From Gammaproteobacteria bacterium (lineage in GTDB: Bacteria > Pseudomonadota > Gammaproteobacteria > Eutrophobiales > Eutrophobiaceae), in NCBI GenBank assembly GCA_965222155.1, contig CBDCTH010000012.1, forward strand, positions 256,001 through 320,000: a stretch of 64,000 nt of DNA, read 5' to 3'. This document shows, in pieces, positions 3,793 through 22,073 of this stretch; position 1 is the stretch's first letter; the number at the start of each line of letters is the position of its first letter. A program made the position numbers and the translations under genes. Under the pieces are notes generated by a model. The model saw only the letters and a program-made list of their open reading frames with translations, searched no databases and was not told the origin of the DNA.

Positions 3793-3808
3793 CCACCCTA
3801 TCGGGTAG
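3793..3808. promoter_or_regulatory. Palindromic operator box CCACCC-TATC-GGGTAG
   Basis: Lies 23 nt upstream of TATAAT (3832-3837) in front of the MalT-like regulator. The same motif recurs at 11733, 20262, 21995 and 22058. Confidence 0.6.
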
Positions 3809-3906
3809 TATTTCAGACACCAGGGGCATAATATAATAACCTGAGTGGGATTGGTTATCAAAATCCACAGTCAATAACACGGTTGCTTCAGGTTTACAGG
3901 CCAGAC

Positions 3907-6642
3907 ATGGGAAAGAATAGTGATAATCTATTCGGTGACAGGGATTGGCTTATTTTTGGAAAGTTCGAATCCCAACACAGCCTGATCTCCCAGGTTTCCC
4001 GCCCGGCGCTGCTTAAAAAACTGAACCAGTCTGCACAAGGCGCGCTTACCCTGGTTGTCACGCCGGCAGGTTATGGAAAATCTACCCTCCTCTCTCAATG
4101 GTTCAAAACCCTGGCCGGTTCGGACCACATCGCCGCCTGGCTTACTCTGGATGAAAGCGACCGCGTGCCGCACCAGTTCTGTTCCCATATCGTGCTTTCC
4201 CTGTGTTATACGGGAGCAGAGATGGGGGCGCTGGAAAAACTTGCAGAACAGGAATTTGTCGACGTGCCCATAGATGCGGTGATCCGAACCCTGTCGGCGT
4301 CACTGGCCAGGCAAAGTAAGCCTGTCATCATCATAATTGAAGATTATCATCGGGTAGGTGATAGCCATATCGACACTGTCATGGAAAAATTCCTTGACCT
4401 CTCCACCGGGTCGACTCACTTTGTGGTGAGTTCCCGGGAAAAACCCGGGTTCAATTTCTCCAGCCTCAAGGTCAACGGACTGGTGCAGGAGTTTGACAAC
4501 AACGACCTGCGTTTCAGTATCGAGGACACCTATCGGCTGTTTCCGGATGATTGCAAAAAGTCCGAACTGAAAACCCTGGCCAGGAAAACCGAGGGCTGGG
4601 CTGTTGCCCTGCAACTGGCGCGCTCCATCCTGGATAATGAAACATCACTCGCCAACGTTATCCAGAACCTGTCCGGCGTGACCGACGATCTTGCCGAGTA
4701 TCTCAACCAGCAAATCTACGGCGGGCTCTCCGATGCAATAAAACAGGTGCTGCGGCAGACTTCGATCCTCGACCGCTTCAACGTCAGTCTGGCTAATGCC
4801 GTATGTAAACGCATCGACTGCCTGGATATCCTCGACCGGCTTAAACGACGCCACTCATTAATCGTTTCAACACAACGGGAGACGGGTTGGTATCGCTATC
4901 ACCACCTGTTACTGGAATTTCTCAATAATGAACTCGAACGGGTCGAACCGGAACTCATTGCTACGCTGCATATACGCGCCGCCGACTGGTATGAGAATAA
5001 TAATTTTCCAGCACTTGCCGTCAAACACGCCTGTCTTGCCGGAAACCTCGCACAGGCTGCGCGGATCATGGAAGACTCCGGCGGCTGGGAGCTTATCCTG
5101 TTCGGCGGCATTCCGCCGTTCAGACGCCTCATCGCTTCATTTTCCATTACGGATTTCTCAAAATTTCCCCGTATCGAGATTGCCCGAATTTATTACCTGA
5201 TAAAGAATGGTGAAATCCTTCAAGCCCGGCGCTTCTTCAATCGATTGCTGGAGACCAACCAGTGCCTGCTTGTGGAAAACAGCGAAGCAGCCCGCGCATT
5301 ACAACGCGACAGCGTTTTGATCGGCGCGCTGCTGGACGTCTACGAAGATAAAATAACCAGCCGGGAAGGACTGGAGGAGATTGTCGGTATTTCGGTCAAT
5401 CTGGCACACTCCGATGCAGCCGGACACTCGATAATCACGGCCTGTTCCGCGGTCTCCGCACTGACCATCGGCAGCTTCAAGGAAGCCCTGGATTACGCCA
5501 CCCACTGCTGCCGGTATATGCGGGAGATAAGTTGCATGCAGGGTCTGAGTTACGCCTTGATTCACCAGGGACGCGCCTCTCTATACCTGGGCCAGTTCAG
5601 GGAAGCCGGCGCTATCTTCAGTGAGGCACTTGAGATGATTGAAGAGAATTTCGGGGCGGAGAGCAACCTCAAGGCCATCGCGGAAATTCTCACTGCATCA
5701 GCGGACTATATCACTGACCGGGAAACATTCGACCAGGAACGCCTCACGGGGGCGCTGGTCCAGATGGAACATTACGATGGCTGGTTCGATATTTACGCGG
5801 CAGGCTACGGGACTGTTGCTTCCATCGCTTTCAGGCGCGCCGGCCTGCCGGCGGCCAGAAATATATTACAACGGGGGCGGCGCATGGCGGAAATACGTTA
5901 TCTCCCGAGATTGAGCGAATTTATCGATGCCTGTGAATACCTGTACCTGGTGCGCTCGGGCGAATGGCAAGAAGCCAGAACGCTTGCGAAATTGAAGAAA
6001 ATCAGTTTCAGGCCGGACGCGACGAATTCCGTGAACTGGTGGAGCGCTCATCTCGTGGGCACGGCCGAAGGTCTCATGGCGCTCTCCACCCACAGGAACA
6101 AACACGCCCTGGAGGTAGCCGGTTCGCTGATCAACATCGCCCGGAGCGGCAATAACCGCTGGCACGAGCTGGAAGCCTCCCTGCTCATGTCCCTTGCGCT
6201 GCTTGCCGGCAGGCAGGACGAGCGCGCTTTTGCAAACCTGACGGACACACTGGATATTGCAGCCAAGGAAGGCACCTACCGCATACTGCTGGATTTCGGC
6301 AAACCCCTTGAGGAACTCCTGTCGCGTTTCTACCGTCGGCAGCGCAGCAACCTGCGTCTCAGCAGCTTTACCGGCAGTTTTGTAAAGGACTGTCTGGCGC
6401 GGTTTCACAAGACACCGTACCAACTCAGGGAAAAACCACCGGAAGCGCTCCTGCTCAGCCCGCGCGAACTCGAGATACTCCAGGAACTCGCACTGGGTTT
6501 TTCCAACAAGGACATTGCCCGCATGCTCGACATGACGGAAAATACGGTCAAATTCCATATGAAAAACATCTTCAAAAAGCTCGACGTGGACAACCGCATT
6601 CGCGCGGTGTCCACCGGCCAGGAGATGGGCCTGATCTCATGA
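3907..6642 (+). CDS. MalT-like (LAL) ATP-binding LuxR-family transcriptional regulator
   Basis: Walker A PAGYGKST, TEGWAVALQL, WYRYHHLL, C-terminal LuxR HTH LSPRELEIL...TVKFHMKNIFKKL. ATG 3907 preferred over TTG 3883. Confidence 0.93.
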   Translation: MGKNSDNLFGDRDWLIFGKFESQHSLISQVSRPALLKKLNQSAQGALTLVVTPAGYGKSTLLSQWFKTLAGSDHIAAWLTLDESDRVPHQFCSHIVLSLCYTGAEMGALEKLAEQEFVDVPIDAVIRTLSASLARQSKPVIIIIEDYHRVGDSHIDTVMEKFLDLSTGSTHFVVSSREKPGFNFSSLKVNGLVQEFDNNDLRFSIEDTYRLFPDDCKKSELKTLARKTEGWAVALQLARSILDNETSLANVIQNLSGVTDDLAEYLNQQIYGGLSDAIKQVLRQTSILDRFNVSLANAVCKRIDCLDILDRLKRRHSLIVSTQRETGWYRYHHLLLEFLNNELERVEPELIATLHIRAADWYENNNFPALAVKHACLAGNLAQAARIMEDSGGWELILFGGIPPFRRLIASFSITDFSKFPRIEIARIYYLIKNGEILQARRFFNRLLETNQCLLVENSEAARALQRDSVLIGALLDVYEDKITSREGLEEIVGISVNLAHSDAAGHSIITACSAVSALTIGSFKEALDYATHCCRYMREISCMQGLSYALIHQGRASLYLGQFREAGAIFSEALEMIEENFGAESNLKAIAEILTASADYITDRETFDQERLTGALVQMEHYDGWFDIYAAGYGTVASIAFRRAGLPAARNILQRGRRMAEIRYLPRLSEFIDACEYLYLVRSGEWQEARTLAKLKKISFRPDATNSVNWWSAHLVGTAEGLMALSTHRNKHALEVAGSLINIARSGNNRWHELEASLLMSLALLAGRQDERAFANLTDTLDIAAKEGTYRILLDFGKPLEELLSRFYRRQRSNLRLSSFTGSFVKDCLARFHKTPYQLREKPPEALLLSPRELEILQELALGFSNKDIARMLDMTENTVKFHMKNIFKKLDVDNRIRAVSTGQEMGLIS

Positions 6643-6659
6643 TGCCGGGAAAATAGTCC

Positions 6660-6684
6660 GGGGACGGATTTTAAATCCGTCCCC
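6660..6684. repeat. REP-like palindrome family A (GGGGACGGATTT-T-AAATCCGTCCCC)
   Basis: 12-bp inverted repeat; near-identical copies at 10433-10453, 57824-57848 and 59480-59504. Confidence 0.85.
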
Positions 6685-6708
6685 ATTTATTCATCATTCA
6701 CCCATCCA

Positions 6709-6752: not shown

Positions 6753-6771
6753 GGGATGGGGGATGTTTGTT

Positions 6772-7731
6772 TTATTTCTTGGTAATCTTTGGGCCGACGT
6801 ATACTACATAAACCGGTTCACCGAACTGGATGGGCCAGGAAAAATGTAACCGTAAGACTTTATGGCGCTCCTTGCCATGCCATGGACAAAACAGGAATTT
6901 TTCAGGATTGCTCGGATGCTTAAACGTCAACTTATTACAAAATTTGCTCTTCTCCGTATCAGTCGAATCAGAAAACAGCGCGTTTTCACCTTTGAAGAAG
7001 TCTTGGTAAATTCGATGACCTTCGGGTGTTCTTTTACCGGCCTCATCAAAGGCTCCTGCTAACTGGTCCAGAATGCTGAAAAGTTCAAGAATACGTTCCA
7101 TCGAACTCTTTGTGAATGTAACGCCTTCAAGAGGTCGAAAGCATTCGTTTGCAAAAGTCAGATTGCTGAATCGATGAGTCGAGGTACTTCCCAAATCATC
7201 CCATGACCGAACCGGCGGGATGGTAGTTGTTAATTCTTTTTCCAGTGAGGTGGCATCCCGCCAATTTTCGAGTCTTGTGTTTCGGTTTTTTAGTCCTTCA
7301 TCTTCCCGCTTCCAAATTACCTCAACAGGCGAGAAGTTCCAATCGGATGGGGTTATGCTGACCAAACCACATTCAACACTATGCAGTTTTCGATAAGCTG
7401 CTTCTCCCACGGCGGATTCAGTAACCACTTCCCCCCGGCATTCCAGCCACACATCACCACTATGCCGGCGAAGGTCATCCCAAAAGGGACCGCCACGTGT
7501 CAGCCAACTGATCGTAGCTCGCCGTTCGCTTTCACGAAGTCGCCTAAGCGCTTGCTGTATCGGCACGCCGGGCAATGGTTCAACCCTCAAAAATGCTCGA
7601 TGGCAATACACCTCCCGGCCGAAATGCTTGGCCATTTTTCGCATGGCCATAAGCTCTTGCAACGCTTTGCGAAAGGATGATATGTCATGAAATTGTTGGT
7701 GAATTGAAAGATCATTTGCGAACAGTTCCAT
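6772..7731 (-). CDS. Putative Menshen NsnC-type effector (unknown function, possible nuclease C-terminus)
   Basis: Third gene of a DUF262 / DUF3696-ATPase operon, 1 bp from the ATPase stop. C-terminal WHGK..LRLHF..VYVGPK resembles RNase-toxin-like folds (inference). Confidence 0.6.
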   Translation of the reverse strand: MELFANDLSIHQQFHDISSFRKALQELMAMRKMAKHFGREVYCHRAFLRVEPLPGVPIQQALRRLRESERRATISWLTRGGPFWDDLRRHSGDVWLECRGEVVTESAVGEAAYRKLHSVECGLVSITPSDWNFSPVEVIWKREDEGLKNRNTRLENWRDATSLEKELTTTIPPVRSWDDLGSTSTHRFSNLTFANECFRPLEGVTFTKSSMERILELFSILDQLAGAFDEAGKRTPEGHRIYQDFFKGENALFSDSTDTEKSKFCNKLTFKHPSNPEKFLFCPWHGKERHKVLRLHFSWPIQFGEPVYVVYVGPKITKK

Positions 7732-7732
7732 C

Positions 7733-8890
7733 TCAACCCCACCCGGCGAAGTAATTCATGTCCTTGTCGAACTGGTCAAAGAACCCTTCCGGCCAGGTAT
7801 CGATATTTCCATCGTTGTCCATAACCGGGCTCTGTACCTGTGCAATACCTTCCCGCTCACACTCATGGCGCGACAGGAAAAAATGCAGAGCGACCCTGTC
7901 GGGAGATAATTTTTTCTTTCTGACTGCTCTTCTGACCCCGTTCAATACATGGTCGCTATGGGTTTCCAGTATGACCTGCACCCCGGCGGCGGCAACTTCA
8001 GCCAGAAATTCACCCATCATTGCCTGCCCTGCGGGGTGAAGATGCACTTCCGGATTTTCTATTAATAAGAGGTCGTCCGGACCTGCGGACAAGGCTGCTA
8101 CTACTATCGGGAATACCTGCGTCAACCCGAACCCTGTATGAATGGGCCGATGGAAATCCGTATCATCGGAGGTGCGAATACCCAAGGTTACAGCATTGGC
8201 ATTCGGAACCTTGTCTATCGTCAAATCACAACCAGGGAAGAAATTATTCATTCTTGCTATTGTCTGATACAGACGCGTCGGCGGTTCTCCCTCGATCACC
8301 AGGTCTTTGAGGATGTGCTCATCACTACCCGAATAAAGTACGCTTACGGCATGCTCCCCTCTCGGCCCGACAACGGGCGCAAGCTGGGAGTCTTCCAACG
8401 GATAATATTCACGCGGCCCCAGCCTCTCCGCGGTAAGATAAGTGAGCCTGAGCAGGCATTCGATCAACATGTGAGTGTGCTGGCGCGCCGTCTCAGGCAG
8501 CAGGTGGTGCAACATCTCCGGATCAGTTTCTTCAAGGACTTCAATGCCACTGACTCCTACGTGTTTTACCACCATCGACATTTCGTCCCGTTCTCCCGTA
8601 AATTCCCATCTGTGATCTGCTATAAGATCCTGCAGGGCAATCCCGCAGGAGCGCCGTCCGTAAACTTTGTCGATTACGTCGGCTACGGTGCCAAGCCGAA
8701 CGACGGCGCCGTTGAGCATGAGACGCGACGACCATTCATGTTCCCGCATCGTTTGATGCAGAAGCGTCAGCGCCTGGATTATTGATGATTTACCGGATGC
8801 GTTGGCACCGGAGAGCAGTGTCAGGGGGCATAGATGCAGCTTCAACAATTTGAAGCATTTAAAATATTGCAGGTCTATCCGTGTAAGCAT
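7733..8890 (-). CDS. ABC/SMC-like ATPase with DUF3696 (Menshen NsnB-like)
   Basis: Walker A GANASGKS, TGFGLTQV, Walker B LLIENPEVHLHP, ETHSDH, C-terminal WPEGFFDQ. Confidence 0.88.
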   Translation of the reverse strand: MLTRIDLQYFKCFKLLKLHLCPLTLLSGANASGKSSIIQALTLLHQTMREHEWSSRLMLNGAVVRLGTVADVIDKVYGRRSCGIALQDLIADHRWEFTGERDEMSMVVKHVGVSGIEVLEETDPEMLHHLLPETARQHTHMLIECLLRLTYLTAERLGPREYYPLEDSQLAPVVGPRGEHAVSVLYSGSDEHILKDLVIEGEPPTRLYQTIARMNNFFPGCDLTIDKVPNANAVTLGIRTSDDTDFHRPIHTGFGLTQVFPIVVAALSAGPDDLLLIENPEVHLHPAGQAMMGEFLAEVAAAGVQVILETHSDHVLNGVRRAVRKKKLSPDRVALHFFLSRHECEREGIAQVQSPVMDNDGNIDTWPEGFFDQFDKDMNYFAGWG

Positions 8891-8901
8891 ACTGGATATC
8901 C

Positions 8902-10098
8902 TTAAGAAGAATTCGAATCTGAGTCAGCGACAAGGTCGGTTGCAAAACCGGTTGTTTGAGTGCCGAGAATATCCTCGAATATTTCACGCGTCATTTTGAA
9001 CCGGGTCTTTACCTTCCTGGTATCGTTTGTGCCAATAGTAATTGCGTTATGGAACTCCTCATCATAAAACAGATTACGGATGGTATCGCCAAGACGCTCG
9101 GCGCACGCACTGACCCTTGCTTCAGGGTAACAGGACAAGCCGGTAGACATAACATCCCAGAGTGATGCATTGAGGACGCTTCGCCGCTGCCGTTCCAAAG
9201 TGTGCTTCCTGAAGGCGTGTCGTTTGAACAACATGAAATTATTGGCAAGGCTCCTGCGTAATTCTCCCGATAACCGCGCAAGGTCAGCTTCCTCCATCAT
9301 GTTCATTCTACGCAAACATTCTGCGAGAAAAACATCCATATCGCCACGGTACTCATCAAGCCCGAGAAGCTGAAAAGCGCAGAACCGGTTGACAAATTCC
9401 CGATCGCGCATGATTTTCCAGTTCAGGCTTCCGTCTGTCACTTTCAGAAAAATTTCGGTTTTTGCTTCATCTTTAAGGAATCGAGTCGCCGGCCCCATGA
9501 ATAAGCTGTTGCGTATTTGCTGTGGTTTGAGTGCCACACCGCTGTTTACTCTGTCGAAGATATCCAGTCGGGCGCGCTCCGAGGCTTTTGAGTCAAGGAT
9601 GTAGAAAATGAGATTACAATCTTCGATTCGATTCTGGAGTTTGGACTCCAGGTCCGAGAACTTTTTGCCATTGAGTTCGCCGCGGTCCGGAAGGCGTAGT
9701 CTCAAACCGTCGGACACGAAGTTCTGGAACGTGGACAGGCGCTGCAAACCGTCTACGACTATCATTCGCCCTCCCTCATCTTCCGCGAGATAGAAGACCG
9801 GCAGGGGAATTCGCATGAGCACGGATTCTATGAGCTTGCTTTGCTTGTCTTCCTCCCAGATGAAATCGCGCTGGAAATCAGGGTCCATTACGTAGCTTCC
9901 CTTATTGATCCGCCGTATGATGTCGAAAACAGTTCGACTTTCATGCCGGATAAAGAGCGCATCAATGGGGTAATCACCCCACGAACCACCTCCTGAGTCC
10001 AGACCTTCGACATCTTCCACGTCAATAGGATTGTCTAATTGCTGGGATTCAGAAGTGTTGTCGCTCTGTGTTTCTTGCATATCAGTCTGCTCATTCAT
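8902..10098 (-). CDS. DUF262 (ParB/Srx-like) protein (Menshen NsnA-like)
   Basis: PDFQRDFIW, LIESVLMRIPLP, VVDGLQRL, IFDRVNSG motifs. ATG 10098 chosen; the ORF extends to 10143. Confidence 0.88.
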   Translation of the reverse strand: MNEQTDMQETQSDNTSESQQLDNPIDVEDVEGLDSGGGSWGDYPIDALFIRHESRTVFDIIRRINKGSYVMDPDFQRDFIWEEDKQSKLIESVLMRIPLPVFYLAEDEGGRMIVVDGLQRLSTFQNFVSDGLRLRLPDRGELNGKKFSDLESKLQNRIEDCNLIFYILDSKASERARLDIFDRVNSGVALKPQQIRNSLFMGPATRFLKDEAKTEIFLKVTDGSLNWKIMRDREFVNRFCAFQLLGLDEYRGDMDVFLAECLRRMNMMEEADLARLSGELRRSLANNFMLFKRHAFRKHTLERQRRSVLNASLWDVMSTGLSCYPEARVSACAERLGDTIRNLFYDEEFHNAITIGTNDTRKVKTRFKMTREIFEDILGTQTTGFATDLVADSDSNSS

Positions 10099-10261
10099 CG
10101 GTATCGTAACTTTGTTCAATAAATATTCACATATTTTACTCACATATCGATTTTGAAAGAAACTGCATGAATAAAAAACTCTGTGTCAATTCAGGGTACC
10201 CATAATAAGGGGTCGCCTCCAGCATCGAGTCATTTATTATGCTGCCGGAGGCAACTCCGCT

Positions 10262-15752: not shown

Positions 15753-17851
15753 TCGGCGTGGTAATTACCAAACCTGTCGATAGTAACCACGCATCCGGGC
15801 GGGACCACCATGCTGACGGACGGTTCCTGGATAACGGCCGGGCCGTCGAGCTTTATACCCGGCTCCAGTCGCAGCCCGTCATAGATAACGGCATCGTGTA
15901 TGCCGTGCCGGTCAAAATCCACTTTACGCACGTGCAGGACGGCATCCTCCGGCCTCAACCCGGTTTGCGGTTTTTCCAGGAGGTCGGGTTTGTCCACCGC
16001 CACACTCGCCACCAGGTGCAGGTTCACCACCTGGAGTTCCGCATCATCGAGACGGTAGGTATAGCGTTTCTCATGAGCGGCATTGAATCGCTCCGCCGCA
16101 AGCACCAGATCCACCCGGCCATCGGCAAAAGGAAACAGAATTTTGACGGTATGCTCCTGGCCGCGATAACGCATATCGGCATGGTAATCGAATCCTATCT
16201 CGGGGTCCCCCGAACCGAGGCCGTCGGCGCCATAATCCTTGCGCGCCCGGCCGATCAATGCGTTAAAAACCTGCGCCAGCTTATCCGCGTTGCCCGGCTC
16301 CAGCGCCAGGGGACAGGTCTGCAGGTAATCACGGCGCAGGTCCGTCAGCAACATCCCCCAGGCCGAGAAAACGGCAGAGTTGACCGGTACGATGACACGC
16401 CGCACCTGCAATTCTTCGGCTAGGTCCAAGGCATGGAGCGCTCCTCCCCCGCCGAAGGCAACCAGGGTGAAATCGCGCGGATCATAGCCCTTGTTCGTGG
16501 ACACCAGCCTGAGCGCGTTGGTCATATTGGCATTGGCAACCCTGACCACACCCCTGGCCAGCTCATCCCGCGTCATGCCGAGCCTGTCCTGCAGCGGTTT
16601 GAAAGCGGCATTGACCGCATCCCAGTCCGGCTGCACGGCGCCACCGACAAAACTGTCCGGGTCAATCCTTCCCAGCACCAGGTTGGCGTCGGTTGTCGTT
16701 ACCCTGGTCCCTCCCTTGCCGTAGGACGCCGGTCCCGGCAGTGCTCCCGCGGACTGCGGTCCGACGTGCAGCCTGTTGCCCTCGTCTATCCAGGCGATGG
16801 AACCGCCGCCGTTACCGATCTCGACAAGTTCGGTAACCGGGGTCTGGATGGGATAGCCGGGCATTTTGCGGTCCCTGTTGATATGGTATTCTGTGGTGAT
16901 CCTGATCTCGCCGTTCTCAACCAGGGCGCATTTCGCCGTGGTGCCGCCTATATCCAGGACGATCAGGTTTTCCTCGCCGATGTTACTGCCCAGACTGGCC
17001 GCGGCAAAAATACCGCTGGCAGGCCCGGACTCCACCATGGCAATCGGATTGGACCTGGCGGCTTCCATCGTGGCGATGCCGCCGTTTGACTGCATCATGT
17101 AGGGTTTCCCGGTGAAACCGCCCGCAAGCAGATGTCGCTCCAGGGACTCGATATATTTTTTGGCGACGGGATGGACACAGGCGGCCAGCACCGTGGTACT
17201 GGTGCGTTCGTATTCCCGCCATTCCCGGCTGATTTGGTGGGAAGCCAGGACGGATACGTCAGGCCACAGCACTTTAATCTGCTCCGCTGCACTCACCTCG
17301 TTTTCCGGGTTGATGTATGAATGGAGAAAACAGACGGCTATGGCTTCCACCCCTTCCGCTTTAAAGAAATCCAGCAACGCCGGCAACGGTGACAGGCACA
17401 CCGCTTTCTGCACCTCGCCCTTGTAGTTGACGCGTTCGTTGAGTTCCGCCCTGAGATAGCGTTCGACAAAAGGCTTGGGTTTCCTGAAATTGAAGTTGAA
17501 CAGGTCCGGCCGGTTGCCGCGGGCCAACTCCAGGACATCTCGAAATCCCTTTGTGGTAATCAGGGCAGTCTTGACACCTTTCTTTTCCGTCAGGGCATTG
17601 ATGACCAGGGTGGAACCGTGGGCAAAAAACGCCAAGTCGGCGGGAGAGATCTCAGCCTTCTCCATGGCGACCATCACCCCTGTTTCAAAATCAGGCGGGG
17701 TGGTATCGGTCTTTACCGACTGTACGGTTCCGCAGGCGCCTGTCCCTGTGTCAATCCGGTAATATACGAGATCGGTAAAGGTTCCGCCTACGTCGCTGGC
17801 TGCCCTGAACTTGTCCTTTGCTCGCTTAAAAGTCGTATCGGTACTCAACAC
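15734..17851 (-). CDS. Hydantoinase/5-oxoprolinase subunit A (copy 2)
   Basis: DVGGTFTD, ESGPASG, DIGGTT, FGGGGALH; diverged paralog of 12010..14094; start uncertain. Confidence 0.92.
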   Translation of the reverse strand: MLSTDTTFKRAKDKFRAASDVGGTFTDLVYYRIDTGTGACGTVQSVKTDTTPPDFETGVMVAMEKAEISPADLAFFAHGSTLVINALTEKKGVKTALITTKGFRDVLELARGNRPDLFNFNFRKPKPFVERYLRAELNERVNYKGEVQKAVCLSPLPALLDFFKAEGVEAIAVCFLHSYINPENEVSAAEQIKVLWPDVSVLASHQISREWREYERTSTTVLAACVHPVAKKYIESLERHLLAGGFTGKPYMMQSNGGIATMEAARSNPIAMVESGPASGIFAAASLGSNIGEENLIVLDIGGTTAKCALVENGEIRITTEYHINRDRKMPGYPIQTPVTELVEIGNGGGSIAWIDEGNRLHVGPQSAGALPGPASYGKGGTRVTTTDANLVLGRIDPDSFVGGAVQPDWDAVNAAFKPLQDRLGMTRDELARGVVRVANANMTNALRLVSTNKGYDPRDFTLVAFGGGGALHALDLAEELQVRRVIVPVNSAVFSAWGMLLTDLRRDYLQTCPLALEPGNADKLAQVFNALIGRARKDYGADGLGSGDPEIGFDYHADMRYRGQEHTVKILFPFADGRVDLVLAAERFNAAHEKRYTYRLDDAELQVVNLHLVASVAVDKPDLLEKPQTGLRPEDAVLHVRKVDFDRHGIHDAVIYDGLRLEPGIKLDGPAVIQEPSVSMVVPPGCVVTIDRFGNYHADQVLTP

Positions 17852-20144
17852 GCCAGACCCTGGGGGGAGCCGGATGCAGGAACAACGGCGTCACCACTTC
17901 GGAGTTGTATTCTTCATCCGTGAGGTTATTGATATAGGTCGCCAGCGTCCATTTATCGCCTCTCATTCCGAAACGCAGGTTGACCAGGTCCAGGGGCGAC
18001 CTCGGATGCGTGTTTTCCGGTGTCCAGAACTGCTTGCCGCGGCGTTCGTAGTCTACCCTGGCAAACAGCGCGGCTCCGTCGAACACGTTGAACTCGACGT
18101 GTGCGCCGGCATTGATGGTGTATTCGGCGATGTACGGTAACTCATTGCCTACCGTCGCAGGCCTTTCCTCATATTCGATAATTTCTCCGTCAGTCTGGCC
18201 GTAGGCCGCATAGACGTCAATATTATCAGAAACCCGCCAGACTCCCTCTATCTCAAACCCATCCAGTTCCCCTTCATCGATGTCTTCAAAAACCTGTACG
18301 AACGCCAGGCCGTCAAAGGGAAAATACTGGGTGTTGTCGACCGTAGAATTGAAATAGGCCAGATTCAGACTGAAAGGCCCGTAGTTCATTTTTGCTCCCA
18401 GTTCCCAGGCGGTATTATCTTCCTGCTCGATAAACTCCTTGGCCGTAGCGCTTATCACCCCGATACCGGGATAATTGAACTGGCCGGCCCGGTAGCCGAT
18501 ACCCCAGCTACCGTAGAGATTGATCTCGTCCGACACCTGATAGCGCAGGGTAATCTTGGGTTGAAATTTGCTGTAGGTCTGCTCACTGACCTCGGTTGAG
18601 CGCCGGGTGTACATCAGCAGTTCATCAAACGTTGCGTAAGCACCGCAGTTGACTGCCTGCATGGGAAAGTTGATGGCGTCACAGCCCACCGCCCCGTAAG
18701 GATGGTTCACTCCGGACCCATCAGCCTGCCGGTACACCCGCCCGGCGGTGTTATAAGGGTTCACGTTCTGTTCCCGGGTCTCCTCGTCATAACGGGCTGC
18801 CAGGGATAAGGTCAGCCGCTCCATCACGTCCCAGTCGATGCTGCCGAATACCGCCCAGGCATAACTGTCTTCCAGGAAGGACAGAAAAGCGCCCGGGGCG
18901 ACCCCGCTGGGGTTGGTGCTGTTTTCGAATGCGGGCACGACCGTAGGACGCAGAATACCCTGTCCCTTATCCTCCCCCGTTACGGTAGTGCGCAGGCGCT
19001 CCCAGGACAGGTAATAGGCGCCCGCCTGCCAGCGCAGAGGGCCGTCCGACTTGGAAGTCAGCCGCAATTCCTGGCTCCAGCCGTCGACGTCCACGTAGGT
19101 ATGCTGAGTGCCGTCCAGGATCGATAAATAAGGCCCCTGGTCGGCTACCGAAGAGGTTTCCAGTTCATCATAGGTGGTCACAGACTTGAAATCGGCAAAG
19201 CCCAGGTCATAGTTCAGCTTGACGGAAAAACCGACAGTTTCGCGCCGGCCGCGGTCGGGATTGTTTGCCACGTAGGGAAGTCCTGTCAAATTGGCGCCTT
19301 TTGCGTTGATTTCGTCCGTCGTCACGCCCAGTTCAGCCGCAGTGCCTACAAAAAACCCGAATACCTCGAAGTTTGCCGCGCCGGGCCAATGGAAACCGAT
19401 ACCCTTGCCCTTGTGCTTGGAATACTGAACCTTGAAATCTACGTCAAGGGCAGCAGTGGGCGTCCAGGTGACGCGGCCACGCAGAGTCCTGTCATTGTAG
19501 GGGTTTGTCTCATCATCCAAGGTGACGTTCCTGAAATAGCCGTCCCGCTCCAGCATGCGTCCGGACAGGCGCACTGCCAGCGTATCCGTAACAGGGCCGC
19601 TGAAAGACCCTTCAATGGCAATCTCGTCCGCCTCGCCGTAACTCGCCTTGATATGACCTTCCGGTTCCTCGCTTGGGGCCTTGGTGGTGATGATGATGGC
19701 CCCATTGGAAGCATTGCGGCCATACAGCGCTCCCTGCGGACCTTTCACCACTTCAATCTGCTCGGTATCGAACACCTGGCCGATAAACTGGCGGGCATTG
19801 ACTACCAGAACATCATCCACCACGACGGCAACCGGCAACTCGCCGTTGCGCACCCGGCTGAGGCCGCGCACCGTGAGAAAGGACGTGCCGATGGTCTGTG
19901 ATTCGGCCAGGGTGACATTAGGGGTGAGCTGGATGAAATCGGCCGTCTGGGTGATCCCCGCTTCTTCAATCTGCTCTGCGGTAAAGGCGCTCACCGTGAT
20001 CGGGGCATCCTGTATATTCTCTCTTACCTTACGAGCGGTAACGATGATTTCCTCCAGGACGGACTGTGCGGATACGGGTTGCCAGAGCCCCGTTAACACA
20101 ATAACGGAAATGCCGCATACGATTGACAGTTTGCAACTCTTCAT
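17826..20144 (-). CDS. TonB-dependent receptor
   Basis: Signal peptide, EEIIVTARK, IEVVKGPQGALYGRNA, C-terminal YRYDF; RBS upstream of ATG 20144. Confidence 0.93.
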   Translation of the reverse strand: MKSCKLSIVCGISVIVLTGLWQPVSAQSVLEEIIVTARKVRENIQDAPITVSAFTAEQIEEAGITQTADFIQLTPNVTLAESQTIGTSFLTVRGLSRVRNGELPVAVVVDDVLVVNARQFIGQVFDTEQIEVVKGPQGALYGRNASNGAIIITTKAPSEEPEGHIKASYGEADEIAIEGSFSGPVTDTLAVRLSGRMLERDGYFRNVTLDDETNPYNDRTLRGRVTWTPTAALDVDFKVQYSKHKGKGIGFHWPGAANFEVFGFFVGTAAELGVTTDEINAKGANLTGLPYVANNPDRGRRETVGFSVKLNYDLGFADFKSVTTYDELETSSVADQGPYLSILDGTQHTYVDVDGWSQELRLTSKSDGPLRWQAGAYYLSWERLRTTVTGEDKGQGILRPTVVPAFENSTNPSGVAPGAFLSFLEDSYAWAVFGSIDWDVMERLTLSLAARYDEETREQNVNPYNTAGRVYRQADGSGVNHPYGAVGCDAINFPMQAVNCGAYATFDELLMYTRRSTEVSEQTYSKFQPKITLRYQVSDEINLYGSWGIGYRAGQFNYPGIGVISATAKEFIEQEDNTAWELGAKMNYGPFSLNLAYFNSTVDNTQYFPFDGLAFVQVFEDIDEGELDGFEIEGVWRVSDNIDVYAAYGQTDGEIIEYEERPATVGNELPYIAEYTINAGAHVEFNVFDGAALFARVDYERRGKQFWTPENTHPRSPLDLVNLRFGMRGDKWTLATYINNLTDEEYNSEVVTPLFLHPAPPRVWRVEYRYDF

Positions 20145-20261
20145 AAGAATTCCCCTAAAGTGAACATAGACAAACCCAAGATAGACCACATGGTGACACC
20201 GCTTCAAATACGCAAAAGAGTAGTTCAGTATCTGTCCGGTTATCTCGCTCAACAGTTTTAG

Positions 20262-20277
20262 CTACCCGTTCAGGTAG
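20262..20277. promoter_or_regulatory. Palindromic operator box CTACCC-GTTC-AGGTAG upstream of the TonB receptor
   Basis: Matches the recurring motif; overlaps the stop codon of subunit B copy 2. Confidence 0.5.
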
Positions 20278-21958
20278 GGCTGCGCCCGTCGGCCTGTGGA
20301 TAGAAGCGCGCCGCCTGTTCAGGGGTGACAAAACCATTTCTCAAATCGTCGCGAACCTTATCCGCTGGACGTTCTGCAGGGTTACCGAAGCCGCCTCCCG
20401 TCGCTGAATACAGCCGGGCCACTTCATTCTCTCTCACCGCAAGGGCTGTCGCCATGCTGTGGCGCTCAACCGAACCGTCTGTCCGCAGGATTTCGGCATA
20501 GTTGAGGCTGCCTTCCCGCCCGCCCTGCAGACCCCAGGGCCGGGACCGGGTGCGTGAAAAAGCAATCGTCAGAAAAGCGTCACCGTGGGTGACCCGGTAA
20601 TCCAACACAACGCCCTTGCCTCCACGGAGTTTCCCTTCACCGCCCGGTTCGGTATGGAAAGCGTACTGATCCACTTGCAGACCATAACGCGCTTCGGTCA
20701 ATTCGACCGGTATGTTGAAGGTCTCTCCGTTGCCGCAGCAGAACATGCCGTTGATACCGTCCGCATCGGGCGCGGCGCCCCAGCCGCCCATTAACGGTTC
20801 ACCCAAAATGTAAAGTTCCCCCGTATCCGGATGACGCCCCGAAATAAAGGTGCTGCCGACAGTGCGTTTATGACCTGCAGGCAGGTGGTTCGGCGCGATG
20901 GGCGCCAGTGCTTTCCAGACGACGTCTATGGCGGCGATCAGCGACTCGAAATACAGTGACACCGGCGCCGGCGATTCGGCGGTAAGCAGGGTGCCGGGTG
21001 GGCAGATGATCTCCAGAGGACGAAACGCGCCGCCATTGGCAGGGATGTCCGGATTGGTGACCGCCTTGAAGACACAGCGCACGCCGGTGAGCAGTCCCGC
21101 ATGGGAGCAGTTGATCGGCCCAGGCGCCTGCGCCGATGTGCCGCTGAAATCTGCGATGAAGCGGCCGCCTTTCAGAGTGACGGCAACCTTTATGGTAAAC
21201 GGCCCGTTGCCGAGTCCGTCTTCCTCGATGACGTCTTCCGCCGTATACTCACCCTCAGGCAATTTAAGCAATTCCAGGCGCGTCATGCGCTCACCGTAGT
21301 CCAACAGTTCTTCCATCGCGGCCAGTACCGCGACCTGGCCGTATTTGCCGATCAGGTTTTCGATGCGGCGCGCGCCGACCCGGGCTGCGGCGACGCCGGC
21401 ATGCATATCGCCCAGAGTGTCGTCCGGGAGCCGGACGTTTTCCCTGATCAGTTCGACCAGGGAAACATTGATCTCTCCCGCTTCATACAGTTTCAGGAAC
21501 CGGAAATGCAGTCCCTCCTGGAATATCTCGGTGGAACGGGTGGTCAGACTGCCGGTATCCATACCACCAATCTCTGTCCAGTGGGCCTTGTTGACGGTGA
21601 ACGCGACAATGCAGCCGTCATAAAAGACCGGCAATATTGTGACCACGTCAGGCAGATGGGTGCCGCCGCCCTGGTACGGGCTGTTGGTCAGAATGATATC
21701 TCCGGGGTGCAGGCCCGCGCCGCCGTCATAATGTTCAAGCGCGCCCCTGACTGCGCTGTCGAGAGAACCGAGAAAGGCCGTTACCCCGTTACCCTGGGCC
21801 AGAAGGTTACCCTGCGCATCTGTGGCGCCCACGGCATAATCCAGGGCCTCGTATATGATCGGACTCATGGAAGTACGTCGTAACGCCTCGAACATTTCAT
21901 CACCGACTGCCTGCAGGGTATCCTGGATGATGCTGGAGGTAAATTTGTCAATCGCCAT
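20270..21958 (-). CDS. Hydantoinase/5-oxoprolinase subunit B (copy 2)
   Basis: TSMSPIIYEALDY, THLPDV, AHWTEIGG, QEGL, GEGKLRGGKG, TGGGFGNP. Confidence 0.93.
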   Translation of the reverse strand: MAIDKFTSSIIQDTLQAVGDEMFEALRRTSMSPIIYEALDYAVGATDAQGNLLAQGNGVTAFLGSLDSAVRGALEHYDGGAGLHPGDIILTNSPYQGGGTHLPDVVTILPVFYDGCIVAFTVNKAHWTEIGGMDTGSLTTRSTEIFQEGLHFRFLKLYEAGEINVSLVELIRENVRLPDDTLGDMHAGVAAARVGARRIENLIGKYGQVAVLAAMEELLDYGERMTRLELLKLPEGEYTAEDVIEEDGLGNGPFTIKVAVTLKGGRFIADFSGTSAQAPGPINCSHAGLLTGVRCVFKAVTNPDIPANGGAFRPLEIICPPGTLLTAESPAPVSLYFESLIAAIDVVWKALAPIAPNHLPAGHKRTVGSTFISGRHPDTGELYILGEPLMGGWGAAPDADGINGMFCCGNGETFNIPVELTEARYGLQVDQYAFHTEPGGEGKLRGGKGVVLDYRVTHGDAFLTIAFSRTRSRPWGLQGGREGSLNYAEILRTDGSVERHSMATALAVRENEVARLYSATGGGFGNPAERPADKVRDDLRNGFVTPEQAARFYPQADGRSPT

Positions 21959-21994
21959 ACTTTAAAAATAACGGACATTATTAACTGCTGCAAG

Positions 21995-22073
21995 CTACCC
22001 GCAGGAGTAGGTCAAACGCATGATATGTGCCTGTCACGGGTAGCGGGTAAAGCCGTGCCACTCTTTCAGGTAG
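21995..22073. promoter_or_regulatory. Two palindromic operator boxes in the divergent subunit B2 / racemase promoter
   Basis: CTACCC-GCAG-GAGTAG (21995-22010) and CCACTC-TTTC-AGGTAG (22058-22073), each followed outward by CTTG. Confidence 0.62.

What the first reader, a model, noticed from the sequence alone, without database searches (positions are those of the whole stretch)
3793..22073. Five copies of a palindromic operator link the MalT-like regulator to the double-lactamase cluster
Seen: the 16-bp box CYACYC-N4-RRGTRG, usually with AG or CT flanks, occurs at 3793 (before the regulator), 11733 (permease / A1 divergent promoter), 20262 (before the TonB receptor), and 21995 and 22058 (B2 / racemase divergent promoter). 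In four copies a -10-like hexamer follows 23-24 nt later (TATAAT 3832, AATAAT 11772, GATAAC 22097, TATTTT on the minus strand at 21970), and three copies abut a TTG-starting -35-like hexamer. Established: LuxR-HTH activators bind palindromes next to the -35 element. Inference: the LAL regulator at 3907 activates itself and the whole cluster, which would define a regulon I do not recognise. The defence cassette at 6.7-10.4 kb would then have split the regulator from its targets.
Basis: partly seen in the sequence, partly recalled or inferred. Interest (0 to 1): 0.8.

Follow-up and report, generated by a model that had tools for sequence, protein, structure and literature searches.

The report
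Conserved operator of a MalT-like regulator
A 16-base palindrome sits in front of a large MalT-like regulator gene and of every operon of a neighbouring gene cluster for uptake and ATP-driven ring-opening of an unknown cyclic amide, and the same palindrome accompanies related regulators in many other bacteria, so it is very probably that regulator's binding site.

Summary
CYACYC-N4-RRGTRG occurs at 3793, 11733, 20262, 21995 and 22058. The whole 4.55-Mb genome holds only 8 such sites, and the other 3 lie inside ORFs. The genome-wide count is not above chance; only the local concentration is.

- All boxes are kept in congeneric genomes, while spacers and flanks diverge.
- The regulator and the cluster co-occur in exactly the same 7 of 22 congeners.
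- Near-perfect CTACCC-N4-GGGTAG sits next to distant homologues of the regulator (21-37% identity). This holds in 31 of 36 metagenome loci with hydantoinase genes, and in Novosphingobium and Rhizobium plasmids.
- Six hydantoinase loci of this genome that lack such a regulator have no box.

Each box lies 31.5-32.5 bp from a conserved -10. This points to class II activation, including autoregulation.

The NsnABC defence cassette is an insertion between regulator and permease.

The half-site equals NarL's TACCC. Nine literature searches found no description. It is a new member of a known kind. The substrate is unknown.

The parts
3793..3808 (.). Box 1, CCACCCTATCGGGTAG, upstream of the regulator gene (autoregulatory site)
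   Evidence: Present in 8 of 8 orthologous loci, with variable spacer and unrelated upstream flanks. Matrix score 18.8, 3rd best in the genome.
3832..3837 (+). -10 hexamer TATAAT of the regulator promoter; the -35 position (3809-3814, TATTTC) is poor
   Evidence: TATAAT or TATAGT is conserved in the orthologues aligned. It starts 31.5 bp from the box centre.
3847..3866 (+). Conserved inverted repeat GGGATT...AATCC in the predicted 5' leader of the regulator mRNA (unexplained second element)
   Evidence: alignment: present in 7 of 8 orthologues, missing in G004. The variants GGATT/AGTCC would keep G-U pairs in RNA.
3907..6642 (+). LAL (MalT-like STAND ATPase, TPR and LuxR/GerE HTH) regulator, 911 aa
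   Evidence: Pfam AAA_16, TPR_MalT and GerE. NCBIfam MalT 262 bits, below the cut-off of 537. The start ATGGGAAAG is conserved. Walker A PAGYGKST and Walker B-like DYH are invariant.
6657..6689 (.). Terminator-like hairpin, copy 1 (left border of the inserted cassette)
   Evidence: G016 has a single copy between regulator and permease.
6772..10143 (-). Inserted defence cassette NsnC (6772-7731), NsnB (7733-8890), NsnA (8902-10143); not part of the regulon
   Evidence: PADLOC E-values 1e-112, 1e-102 and 2e-112. Pfam AAA_15/AAA_21/DUF3696 and GmrSD_N. No cassette lies between regulator and permease in the 6 congeners where the two genes abut.
10426..10458 (.). Terminator-like hairpin, copy 2 (right border of the cassette), 85% identical to copy 1
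10440..11696 (-). NCS1-family permease (cytosine/hydantoin-permease type); probable start ATG 11696
   Evidence: Pfam Transp_cyt_pur. NCBIfam cytosine permease 173 bits, below the cut-off of 326. The start MDDFSREQ is conserved.
11702..11709 (-). -10-like element (TACATA / CATACT) of the permease promoter; the ATG follows 5-7 nt later (leaderless-like)
   Evidence: conserved in 6 of 6. -35-like TTGTGG at 11731-11726.
11733..11748 (.). Box 2, CTACCCTAACGAGTGG, shared by the divergent permease and A1 promoters
   Evidence: Identical in G013, G016, G007, G018 and G015; one mismatch in G004.
11750..11777 (+). A1/B1 promoter: TTGACA, 16 nt, AATAAT
   Evidence: Best promoter-like hit of the region, 11 of 12. 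Conserved in 6 of 6.
11923..15752 (+). Hydantoinase/oxoprolinase-family pair A1 (11923-14094) and B1 (14085-15752)
   Evidence: Pfam Hydant_A_N/Hydantoinase_A/Hydant_A_C and Hydantoinase_B. Nearest NCBIfam model is caprolactamase CapA/CapB, far below the cut-off.
15734..17851 (-). Hydantoinase/oxoprolinase-family subunit A2; overlaps the end of the receptor gene (same operon)
17826..20144 (-). TonB-dependent receptor; true start ATG 20144 (MKSCKLSIV..., signal peptide, SD AGGGGA)
   Evidence: Pfam Plug and TonB_dep_Rec_b-barrel. Start.
20178..20207 (-). Receptor promoter: -35 TTGAAG (20207-20202), 18 nt, -10 TATCTT (20183-20178)
   Evidence: The block is conserved in 5 of 5 orthologues.
20208..20223 (-).
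   Evidence: All but one column invariant across the 5 aligned genomes. Matrix score 12.6 in G015. Same layout (half-site, 10 nt, TTG) as in 11 of 27 metagenome cases.
20262..20277 (.). Box 3, CTACCCGTTCAGGTAG; overlaps the B2 stop codon; distal site (about -98) of the receptor promoter
   Evidence: Conserved in G013, G016, G018 and G015; one mismatch in G004. Matrix score 20.3.
20270..21958 (-). Hydantoinase/oxoprolinase-family subunit B2
   Evidence: Pfam Hydantoinase_B, E 7e-165. Orthologues at 88% identity or more in exactly the 7 congeners that have the regulator.
21965..21993 (-). B2 promoter: -35 TTGCAG (21993-21988), 17 nt, -10 TATTTT (21970-21965); ATG 21958 is the 7th nt after the -10 (leaderless-like)
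   Evidence: The same geometry (TTGYGG, 17 nt, TAnnTT, 6 nt, ATG) holds in 5 of 5 genomes, and the 6 nt differ.
21995..22010 (.). Box 4, CTACCCGCAGGAGTAG, proximal site of the B2 promoter
   Evidence: Best matrix score in the genome, 20.8. Conserved.
22058..22073 (.). Box 5, CCACTCTTTCAGGTAG, proximal site of the racemase promoter; 63 bp from box 4
   Evidence: Weak by matrix (10.0), but its promoter-proximal half GGTAG-CTTG is conserved in 5 of 5.
22075..22102 (+). Racemase promoter: TTGCGC, 16 nt, GATAAC
   Evidence: Conserved as TTGTGC/TTATGC ... GATAAC/GATAAT/AATAAT in 5 of 5.
22132..22974 (+). Asp/Glu/hydantoin-racemase-family protein
   Evidence: Pfam Asp_Glu_race, E 2e-25.

Best explanation
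The palindrome (consensus CTACCC-N4-GGGTAG) is the DNA operator of the MalT-like LAL regulator encoded at 3907-6642.

Inferred mechanism:
1. The regulator senses an unknown small molecule through its TPR sensor domain and, with ATP, forms an oligomer.
2. A pair of its NarL-like LuxR/GerE helix-turn-helix domains binds each inverted repeat.
3. Each promoter-proximal box ends 0-1 bp before the -35 hexamer. Its centre lies 31.5-32.5 bp before the -10, which is about -43.5 relative to the predicted transcription start.
4. From that position the regulator activates RNA polymerase in the class II manner.

It would thereby switch on five transcription units:
- its own gene (box 1)
- the NCS1 permease and, divergently, hydantoinase-family pair A1/B1 (box 2)
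- subunit B2 (box 4)
- the racemase (box 5)
- the TonB-dependent receptor plus subunit A2, through a degenerate proximal box at 20208-20223 helped by the perfect distal box 3

What is shown:
- the sites and their restriction to this locus
- their conservation and fixed spacing to conserved promoter elements
- their co-occurrence with this regulator family across distant bacteria

What is inferred: binding by this protein, activation rather than repression, cooperation between two sites, and the ligand.

The NsnABC defence cassette is a later insertion into the terminator between regulator and permease. It has nothing to do with the regulon.
For: Locality. 5 of the genome's 8 strict sites lie in 18.3 kb. 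The expectation is 0.07 for the whole 64-kb window. All five lie between genes or at gene ends. The 3 outside lie in ORFs.

Footprints in the genus.
- Box 1 is present in 8 of 8 genomes although the upstream neighbour differs (asnC or fic). Box, TATTYC and TATART stay while all else diverges.
- Boxes 2 to 5 and the degenerate sixth box are kept in G013, G016, G018, G004, G015 and, where assembled, G007.

Action in trans. In G015 the cluster keeps its boxes although the regulator gene lies about 36 kb away.

Phyletic pattern. Regulator orthologues (83% identity or more) and B2 orthologues (88% or more) occur in the same 7 of 22 congeners, and none has one without the other. G008 has diverged versions of both (35% and 68%), with one box between them.

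Deep conservation.
- In 81 distant loci (996 kb) there are 49 sites with at most 1 mismatch, against 1-7 in 20 shuffles.
- 31 of 36 loci with a full regulator plus Hyu genes have a site. 0 of 23 loci without both have one.
- An unbiased 6-mer count in the 260 nt after the regulator's stop ranks GGGTAG/CTACCC first, 67 against 3.6 expected.
- Named isolates: Novosphingobium sp. EMRT-2 and Rhizobium tumorigenes plasmids (scores 23.7, 23.2 and 22.7).

Specificity. 6 hydantoinase A/B loci of this genome without an adjacent LAL have no box (best score 5.5 or less). A paralogous LAL on C10 has its own variant box, conserved across the genus.

Architecture.
- Box centre to the first base of the -10 is 31.5, 31.5, 31.5, 31.5, 32.5 and 32.5 bp.
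- In metagenome loci a direct half-site lies 40-41 bp after the palindrome start in 14 of 45 sites, with TTG 16 nt after that half-site in 11 of 27 cases.

Protein. The only LuxR-type HTH in the locus is the LAL. Its HTH is among the closest to the NarL C-terminal domain (E 2.5e-11). NarL's engineered high-affinity palindromic site is TACCCCTAAAGGGGTA, and NarL activates from sites at -40 to -49 and -38 to -47 (passages of PMC4549865).
Against: - No binding, expression or transcription-start data exist for this locus.
- The genome-wide count of the strict pattern (8) is below the shuffled expectation (11-20). Enrichment is therefore only local.
- Box 5 scores poorly with the independent matrix (10.0, rank 35).
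- Only one of the proposed promoters passes a consensus scan, and promoter-like hits are not enriched in the region (13 against 11.6).
- The A1 promoter has a consensus -35 (TTGACA), which is unusual for an activator-dependent promoter.
- 5 of 36 distant loci with regulator and Hyu genes lack a site at 1 mismatch or fewer (L040, L084, L089, L094, L096).
- Several homologues with the same recognition helix but no Hyu genes on the contig have no box nearby (L065, L066, L068).
- Two of the four LAL paralogues of this genome have no box.
- Spacing between distal and proximal sites is not constant: 54 and 63 bp here against 40-41 bp elsewhere.
- No covariation between recognition-helix residues and box variants could be seen.
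Confidence: 0.75

Rival explanations
1. The boxes are bound by the same LAL protein, but it acts as a repressor, or as a dual regulator, rather than an activator. An example would be occlusion of the strong A1 promoter.
For: The A1 promoter has a consensus TTGACA and a good -10 (11 of 12), so it might fire without help. NarL, the nearest solved HTH relative, represses frdA from a 7-2-7 site (PMC4549865).
Against: The boxes end before the -35 hexamers and never overlap the -10 or the predicted start. The other four or five promoters have poor -35 hexamers, as activator-dependent promoters do. The MalT-type STAND architecture is known for activators (recalled).
Confidence: 0.08
2. Another DNA-binding protein recognises the boxes, and the LAL is only a neighbour. 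Candidates are a NarL/NarP-type response regulator or a paralogous LAL encoded elsewhere.
For: The half-site TACCC is also NarL's. The genome holds three more LAL paralogues. In G015 the regulator is not adjacent to the cluster.
Against: The box follows the LAL gene across loci sharing only 21-37% protein identity, in Alpha- and Gammaproteobacteria, often within 2-30 bp of its stop codon. No other regulator is consistently present in those loci. The box is found almost nowhere else in this genome, which does not fit a global regulator. The spacing differs from NarL 7-2-7 by 2 bp. Paralogous LALs carry their own variant box.
Confidence: 0.07
3. The palindrome acts as an RNA or DNA structure (terminator, attenuator or repeat element), not as a protein operator.
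For: In many distant loci it lies directly after the regulator's stop codon, sometimes with a T-run (L080, L082, L043, L076). Box 1 on the minus strand passes the terminator-like scan. Among 73 sites, 9 pair positions changed on both sides complementarily.
Against: The stem sequence itself is conserved (88-99% per position over 46 sites) rather than covarying. 61 pair positions changed on one side only. Predicted hairpins are weak, -2.5 to -9.8 kcal/mol. Here the boxes sit in divergent promoter regions, at a fixed distance from -10 elements on either strand, where a terminator makes no sense. Most copies lack a T-run.
Confidence: 0.04
4. Chance or shared ancestry alone: the repeats are conserved only because the congeners are close relatives.
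For: Orthologous proteins are 83-91% identical, so some intergenic identity is expected. The pattern was defined after the fact from these five sites.
Against: In the alignments the flanks and the 4-nt spacers diverge fully while the half-sites stay. A matrix built only from unrelated metagenome loci recovers 4 of the 5 sites among the 6 best of 4.55 Mb. 0 of 100 shuffles of the window reach the observed count.
Confidence: 0.02

Closest known systems
MalT of Escherichia coli, prototype of the LAL / STAND transcription activators
   Same: About 900 aa with an N-terminal P-loop NTPase, a MalT-type TPR sensor region and a C-terminal LuxR/GerE HTH (Pfam). The best NCBIfam model is MalT over the full length. 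Several sites lie per promoter region, one of them next to the -35. That MalT is an inducer- and ATP-dependent oligomeric activator is recalled, not tested here.
   Different: The score of 262 bits is far below the MalT equivalog cut-off of 537. The operator is a symmetric inverted repeat CTACCC-N4-GGGTAG, not the asymmetric MalT box (recalled from memory). The targets are hydantoinase-family, receptor, permease and racemase genes, not mal genes.
NarL and its 7-2-7 operators
   Same: The NarL C-terminal domain (1je8) is among the nearest solved relatives of the HTH, E 2.5e-11, with recognition helix TVKVHVKHMLKKM against TVKFHMKNIFKKL. NarL's engineered high-affinity palindrome is TACCCCTAAAGGGGTA, so it has the same TACCC/GGGTA half-sites in inverted orientation. 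NarL activates from sites at -40 to -49 (napF) and -38 to -47 (yeaR), and binds as a dimer (passages of PMC4549865).
   Different: The half-site cores are 2 bp closer here (TACCC-N4-GGGTA against TACCC-N6-GGGTA). The DNA-binding domain hangs on a STAND ATPase, not on a phospho-receiver domain.
LuxR/TraR-type class II activation from a palindromic box next to the -35
   Same: A palindrome of 16-20 bp centred about -43 that abuts or overlaps the -35. Divergent promoters share one box. (The lux-box position of -42.5 is recalled, not checked in a paper here.)
   Different: There is no acyl-homoserine-lactone-binding domain. The sensor is a STAND/TPR module.
ATP-dependent hydantoinase HyuA/HyuB (Pseudomonas sp. 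NS671), N-methylhydantoinase, caprolactamase CapAB, 5-oxoprolinase
   Same: The same two-subunit family (Pfam). Members open cyclic amides at the cost of ATP (passages of PMC8453981). The cluster also holds an NCS1 permease and an Asp/Glu/hydantoin-family racemase, as expected for hydantoin use.
   Different: All four subunits score far below the caprolactamase equivalog cut-offs: 508, 231, 482 and 259 bits against 1000. No carbamoylase lies in the cluster. A TonB-dependent receptor is part of it. No LAL regulator is reported for the known systems in the papers seen.
Nsn (NsnABC) defence system
   Same: The three inserted proteins match the PADLOC NsnA, NsnB and NsnC models end to end.
   Different: It is unrelated to the regulon and is only the insertion that separates the regulator from its targets in this one genome.

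Membership tests
LAL (large ATP-binding LuxR-family) / MalT-like STAND regulators | N-terminal P-loop NTPase with Walker A and Walker B | tested here: met
   Pfam AAA_16 at residues 43-177. PAGYGKST and the D146-Y147-H148 block are invariant across five homologues down to 34% identity.
LAL (large ATP-binding LuxR-family) / MalT-like STAND regulators | MalT-type TPR/SUPR sensor region | tested here: met
   Pfam TPR_MalT at 507-815, 62.7 bits against a cut-off of 45.
LAL (large ATP-binding LuxR-family) / MalT-like STAND regulators | C-terminal LuxR/GerE helix-turn-helix | tested here: met
   Pfam GerE at 858-909, E 1.5e-18. Nearest solved domains are ChrA, NarL, CviR and RhlR.
MalT proper (maltose regulon activator) | Score above the NCBIfam equivalog cut-off | tested here: not met
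   262.4 bits against a cut-off of 537.
MalT proper (maltose regulon activator) | Asymmetric MalT boxes before mal genes | tested here: not met
   The sites are inverted repeats before hydantoinase-family, permease, receptor and racemase genes. The MalT-box consensus itself is recalled, not checked.
Operator of a dimeric LuxR/GerE-type HTH | Inverted repeat with half-site centres about one helical turn apart | tested here: met
   CTACCC-N4-GGGTAG has half-site centres 10 bp apart. Both halves are 88-99% conserved over 46 independent sites and the spacer is free.
Operator of a dimeric LuxR/GerE-type HTH | Physical binding by the regulator | not testable with these tools
   Needs EMSA, footprinting or DAP-seq.
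Class II activator-dependent sigma-70 promoter | Activator site centred near -41.5 to -44.5, abutting the -35 | tested here: inconclusive
   Box centre to -10 is 31.5-32.5 bp at six promoters, and TTG follows the box by 0-1 nt at four. The elements are conserved. Transcription starts are predicted, not mapped, and only 1 promoter passes the consensus scan.
NarL 7-2-7 site | Two inverted heptamers separated by 2 bp (TACCC cores 6 bp apart) | tested here: not met
   The cores are 4 bp apart in all five boxes and in the 46 distant sites. The NarL site sequence is from PMC4549865.
ATP-dependent hydantoinase/oxoprolinase (HyuA/HyuB, CapA/CapB) family | Paired A subunit (Hydant_A_N, Hydantoinase_A, Hydant_A_C) and B subunit (Hydantoinase_B) | tested here: met
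   Two A and two B genes give full-length Pfam matches.
Caprolactamase CapAB (equivalog) | Score above the curated cut-off | tested here: not met
   508, 231, 482 and 259 bits against a cut-off of 1000.
NsnABC defence system | Three adjacent genes matching NsnA, NsnB and NsnC | tested here: met
   E-values 2e-112, 1e-102 and 1e-112, end to end, contiguous on one strand.

The most novel reading that the evidence does not exclude
The box and its LAL regulator define a widespread and so far undescribed regulon. It occurs in Alpha- and Gammaproteobacteria and in many metagenome contigs.

Its proposed features:
- A MalT-like STAND sensor uses a NarL-like TACCC inverted repeat.
- Typically one strong palindrome is followed by a promoter-proximal half-site next to the -35.
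- Together they switch on TonB-dependent uptake and ATP-driven opening of an unidentified cyclic amide.

Accessory genes seen in other loci make three substrate classes candidates: proline-containing cyclic dipeptides, 5-substituted or N-methyl hydantoins, and ureido compounds of the biotin type. The accessory genes are:
- Xaa-Pro peptidase or creatinase-like M24 enzymes
- a cytosine-deaminase-like amidohydrolase
- cyclophilin
- a beta-eliminating lyase
- avidin-family proteins

In this genus two of the regulated genes (B2 and the permease) would be translated from leaderless mRNAs.
Probability: 0.45. Interest if true: 0.6.

Novelty: new member of a known kind. Interest (0 to 1): 0.5.

Why it matters
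- Few LAL/MalT-like regulators outside MalT itself have a known operator (my assessment from recall; no survey was made). Here a precise and testable one emerges. It has a clear consensus, a defined promoter geometry, and carriers that can be cultured (Novosphingobium, Rhizobium, Sphingorhabdus).
- It links a large, functionally unassigned branch of the ATP-dependent hydantoinase/oxoprolinase/caprolactamase family to a TonB-dependent receptor and to one dedicated sensor. The regulator could serve as a handle, as a reporter or biosensor, to find the unknown substrate.
- The motif can be used to annotate these regulons in genomes and metagenomes.
- It also gives a clean example of a defence cassette (NsnABC) landing in a bidirectional terminator between a regulator and its targets. 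The operators are untouched, so no effect of the insertion on regulation is expected.

Tried and rejected
- RNA evidence: the look-up of sequencing runs listed no RNA holder. Read laying was therefore not used, and transcription starts remain predictions.
- Covariation between recognition-helix residues and box variants (CTACCC against CCACCC) was looked for by eye. None was evident. Position 2 varies even among the sites of this one regulator, so the test is uninformative.
- A count of TAnnnT at each offset from the palindrome in the metagenome loci gave no peak at +32. It gave a peak at +72/73 instead. This led to recognising the two-site layout, with the proximal half-site at +40/41.
- The strict-pattern sites outside the cluster (C12:874007, 3270026, 3354729) and the matrix hits C4:539606 and C12:528396 all lie inside ORFs. 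They were set aside as probable chance matches. C12:3354729 scores 18.6 and was not examined further.
- The AsnC-type regulator at 3293-3769 was considered as the binder and rejected. It pairs with putA. In G016 and G007 a fic gene separates it from box 1, and it is absent from most distant loci.
- Literature. Seven of them looked for this regulon, its operator or its substrate. Their terms included hydantoinase, LuxR, TonB-dependent, caprolactamase, hyuA/hyuB with regulator, MalT with oxoprolinase, CTACCC with GGGTAG, and diketopiperazine with hydantoinase. Only listings and abstracts were seen, and none describes this regulator-operator pair or a LAL-controlled hydantoinase cluster. Searches looked for the NarL and HyuAB precedents instead. 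Supplements were closed, and subscription journals are not covered.
- The sequence in G000 between boxes 4 and 5 (22036-22051) carries extra CTACCC/TTACCC half-sites on the minus strand, but it is not conserved in orthologues. It was not counted as a site.

Full report
THE OBSERVATION

The pattern CYACYC-N4-RRGTRG occurs at exactly the five stated places: 3793, 11733, 20262, 21995 and 22058. Shuffles of the window expect 0.07 matches, and none of 100 shuffles reaches the observed count.

In the whole assembly (4,553,329 bases; the window is C12:256001-320000) the strict pattern gives only 8 distinct sites, five of them in this 18.3-kb stretch. The other three lie inside long ORFs.

One caveat must be stated. 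The genome-wide total is not above chance, because locally shuffled genomes give 11-20 sites. What is far beyond chance is the concentration in one locus and the placement between genes.

GENES

Pfam and NCBIfam give the following map.

| Coordinates | Strand | Gene |
|---|---|---|
| 27-3161 | - | putA |
| 3293-3769 | + | AsnC-type regulator |
| 3907-6642 | + | 911-aa LAL regulator |
| 6772-10143 | - | three defence genes |
| 10440-11696 | - | NCS1 permease |
| 11923-15752 | + | hydantoinase/oxoprolinase-family pair A1/B1 |
| 15734-17851 | - | subunit A2 |
| 17826-20144 | - | TonB-dependent receptor |
| 20270-21958 | - | subunit B2 |
| 22132-22974 | + | Asp/Glu/hydantoin-family racemase |
| 23162-24289 | + | Fic protein |

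The LAL regulator carries AAA_16, TPR_MalT and GerE domains. Its MalT model score is 262 bits, below the cut-off of 537.

Three starts were corrected:
- The regulator starts at ATG 3907 (conserved ATGGGAAAG).
- The receptor starts at ATG 20144, with an obvious signal peptide and a Shine-Dalgarno sequence.
- The permease probably starts at ATG 11696.

The four enzyme subunits are nearest to caprolactamase CapA/CapB but score far below the equivalog cut-offs. They belong to the ATP-dependent lactam/hydantoin-opening family (passages of PMC8453981), and their substrate is unknown.

CONSERVATION WITHIN THE GENUS

Seven of 22 other genomes of the genus hold an orthologue of the regulator at 83-90% identity. 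Exactly the same seven hold an orthologue of B2 at 88-91%. None of the 22 has one without the other.

Box 1 is present before the regulator gene in 8 of 8 genomes. In the alignment everything upstream of the box is unrelated; in G016 and G007 a fic gene lies there instead of asnC. The 4-nt spacer varies. The half-sites, a TATTYC at the -35 position and TATAAT/TATAGT stay.

Boxes 2, 3, 4 and 5 are likewise kept, exactly or with one mismatch, in G013, G016, G018, G004 and G015, and in G007 where it is assembled. So are the TTG hexamers and the -10 elements next to them.

In G015 the regulator gene lies about 36 kb from the cluster, yet the cluster keeps all its boxes. This fits a factor that acts in trans.

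G008 has a diverged version: regulator at 35% identity, receptor 77%, A2 71%, B2 68% and racemase 68%. The genes are arranged differently, with one box in the divergent promoter region.

CONSERVATION FAR BEYOND THE GENUS

Scans with an alignment of the regulator gave one named genome locus (Sphingorhabdus sp. EL138) and 80 metagenome loci with homologues at 21-37% identity.

- In these 81 loci (996 kb) there are 49 sites with at most one mismatch to CTACCC-N4-GGGTAG, against 1-7 in 20 shuffles.
- 31 of 36 loci that hold a full-length regulator plus hydantoinase-family genes have such a site.
- 7 of 20 loci with the regulator but no such genes on the contig have one.
- 0 of 23 loci with neither have one.
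- The five exceptions are L040, L084, L089, L094 and L096. Three of them (L040, L089, L096) have a 2-mismatch version just after the regulator's stop.

An unbiased 6-mer count in the 260 nt after the regulator's stop codon ranks GGGTAG/CTACCC first, 67 against 3.6 expected. The box usually lies 2-30 bp after the stop, and in some loci it overlaps the stop.

A matrix built from 46 of these independent sites ranks 21995, 20262, 3793 and 11733 as first, second, third and sixth in the whole genome of the window. Box 5 scores only 10.0.

The fifth-best hit (C10:70263) lies in the divergent promoter region of a paralogous LAL that neighbours a receptor and a racemase-like gene. Its variant box CTACCC-GTTC-GTGCAG recurs before the orthologues of that paralogue in other congeners.

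Six hydantoinase A/B loci of this genome that lack an adjacent LAL have no box, with a best score of 5.5 or less. The box therefore follows the regulator, not the enzymes.

Two annotated plasmids show the same layout:
- Novosphingobium sp. EMRT-2: a box before an avidin-family gene plus the regulator gene. A second box lies 21 bp after the regulator's stop, before receptor, racemase, HyuA, HyuB, Xaa-Pro peptidase and a beta-eliminating lyase.
- Rhizobium tumorigenes: a box at the regulator's stop, before HyuB, HyuA and an ABC transporter.

HOW IT MOST LIKELY WORKS

Distance from box centre to the first base of the conserved -10:

| Promoter | Distance (bp) |
|---|---|
| regulator | 31.5 |
| A1 | 31.5 |
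| racemase | 31.5 |
| permease | 31.5 |
| B2 | 32.5 |
| receptor | 32.5 |

At four promoters a TTG-starting hexamer begins 0-1 nt after the box. This puts the box centre near -43.5, the class II position. Except for A1, the -35 hexamers are poor, as in activator-dependent promoters. Only A1 passes the consensus promoter scan.

The box at 20262 is not promoter-proximal. The receptor's promoter (TTGAAG, 18 nt, TATCTT, at 20207-20178) is abutted by a sixth, degenerate box at 20223-20208 (CTACTCTTTTGCGTAT). All but one of its columns are invariant across the five aligned genomes.

The same two-site layout is common in the distant loci. A direct CTACYC half-site lies 40-41 bp after the start of the palindrome in 14 of 45 sites. 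A TTG lies 16 nt after that half-site in 11 of 27 cases. One strong palindrome plus a weaker site next to the -35 recalls the cooperative multi-site binding of oligomeric MalT (recalled).

The only LuxR-type HTH in the locus is that of the LAL. The NarL output domain is among its nearest solved relatives. NarL binds as a dimer to TACCCCTAAAGGGGTA, and it activates from sites at -40 to -49 and -38 to -47 (passages of PMC4549865). The half-site core TACCC is the same, and the two cores are 2 bp closer here.

I therefore infer that ligand- and ATP-activated LAL oligomers bind the boxes through HTH pairs and recruit RNA polymerase at five or six promoters, including the regulator's own. My confidence is about 0.75. 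Binding, sign and ligand are all inferred.

A SIDE RESULT

For B2 the ATG is the seventh base after the -10 in five of five genomes, and the six intervening bases differ and contain no Shine-Dalgarno sequence. The permease shows the same geometry. These two genes may be expressed from leaderless mRNAs. This is an inference that needs transcription-start mapping.

RIVALS

- A structural RNA or terminator role is unlikely. The stem sequence is conserved rather than covarying: 61 one-sided changes against 9 complementary double changes among 73 sites. The hairpins are weak, and the copies here sit in divergent promoters.
- A different binder, such as a NarL-like response regulator, does not fit the near-absence of the box elsewhere in the genome or its fidelity to the LAL gene across phyla.
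- Repression cannot be excluded for the strong A1 promoter.
- Chance and mere relatedness are excluded by the independent matrix and by the footprints.

THE DEFENCE CASSETTE

The three genes at 6772-10143 match NsnC, NsnB and NsnA end to end. In 6 of 7 congeners the regulator and the permease are convergent neighbours with no cassette between them. G016 shows a single hairpin, GGGGACGGATTTCAAATCCGTCCCC, between them. In the window this hairpin is duplicated (6657-6689 and 10426-10458, 85% identical) on either side of the cassette. The operators are untouched.

COMPARISON AND NOVELTY

By all three domain tests the protein is a member of the LAL/MalT-like class. It is not MalT: its score is below the cut-off, its operator is of a different type, and its targets differ. 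The operator works like a NarL or LuxR palindrome but fails the 7-2-7 spacing test.

Seven of them sought this regulon or its substrate, and only listings and abstracts were seen. None describes this regulator-operator pair or a LAL-controlled hydantoinase cluster. PGAP names the homologues only as 'LuxR C-terminal-related transcriptional regulator'. Supplements were closed, and subscription journals are not covered, so a prior description cannot be excluded.

I rate it a new member of a known kind: an ordinary regulatory logic, but an apparently undescribed, widespread and well-defined regulon.

What the pathway degrades stays open. The accessory genes in other loci are:
- M24 Xaa-Pro peptidase or creatinase-like enzymes
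- an amidohydrolase
- cyclophilin
- MFS or ABC transporters
- a beta-eliminating lyase
- avidin-family proteins

These are seen. Together with the putA neighbour here, they suggest proline-containing cyclic dipeptides, hydantoins, creatinine products or ureido compounds. None of these was tested.

LIMITS

- No RNA run holds the locus, so all promoters and starts are predictions.

Noticed in passing
window 3847-3866: Conserved inverted repeat GGGATT...AATCC just downstream of the regulator's -10, in the predicted 5' leader. It is present in 7 of 8 orthologues, and its variants (GGATT/AGTCC) would keep G-U pairs. It may be an RNA hairpin or a second operator.
   Followed up: partly
window 21958-21970 and 11696-11709: In all aligned congeners the ATG of B2 and of the permease lies 5-7 nt after the -10-like hexamer, with no Shine-Dalgarno sequence. 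This suggests leaderless mRNAs, which I recall being uncommon in Gammaproteobacteria.
   Followed up: partly
window 6657-6689 and 10426-10458 (cassette 6772-10143): The NsnABC defence cassette is bracketed by a duplicated terminator hairpin. Further short repeats (GGGGGCAGGAATGACGAGAGAA twice at 10298-10341, and a 68% copy at 6739-6760) lie at its borders. G016 has one hairpin and no cassette.
   Followed up: partly
window 11823-11996; L031 17451-17834 (minus strand): G004 has a 127-aa small membrane-protein ORF between the A1 promoter and A1. The window keeps a 57-aa ORF that matches its N- and C-terminal ends, which looks like an internal deletion. Four other congeners lack it.
   Followed up: no
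G000 C10:64500-73100: A second, paralogous system: a LAL (27% identity) divergent from a hydantoinase-A-like gene, a TonB-dependent receptor and a racemase-like gene. Its variant box is CTGCACGAACGGGTAG at C10:70263, and the variant is conserved in congeners.
   Followed up: partly
G000 C12:3354729: A high-scoring box-like site (18.6) lies about 10 codons into a 782-aa ORF (MFALGINYLNGWSMAA...). It was set aside as chance and not examined further.
   Followed up: no
window 23162-24289; L025 4486-5610; L028 2710-3834; L029 5984-7108: The Fic-domain gene sits at different places around the locus in different congeners. It lies after the racemase here and in G018, and between asnC and the regulator in G016 and G007, so it appears mobile.
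   Followed up: no
L026 1917-3729 (G016): In G016 the A1/B1 pair is degraded. A1 matches only residues 25-435 and 576-708, and B1 only residues 322-381, yet box 2 is kept.
   Followed up: no
L129 11051-11842 and L040 14493-15443: Avidin/streptavidin-family proteins lie next to the regulator in Novosphingobium and Sphingorhabdus. In Novosphingobium a box lies before the avidin-family gene. This is curious given that biotin carries a cyclic ureido ring.
   Followed up: no
L051, L102, L090 (ends of the regulator genes): In some distant loci the box is part of the coding sequence. CTACCCGATCGGGTAG encodes the regulator's last residues, Y-P-I-G, plus the stop codon.
   Followed up: no
whole genome G000: The genome carries very many TonB-dependent receptor genes (tens of tblastn hits) and at least seven further hydantoinase A/B-like pairs.
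   Followed up: no
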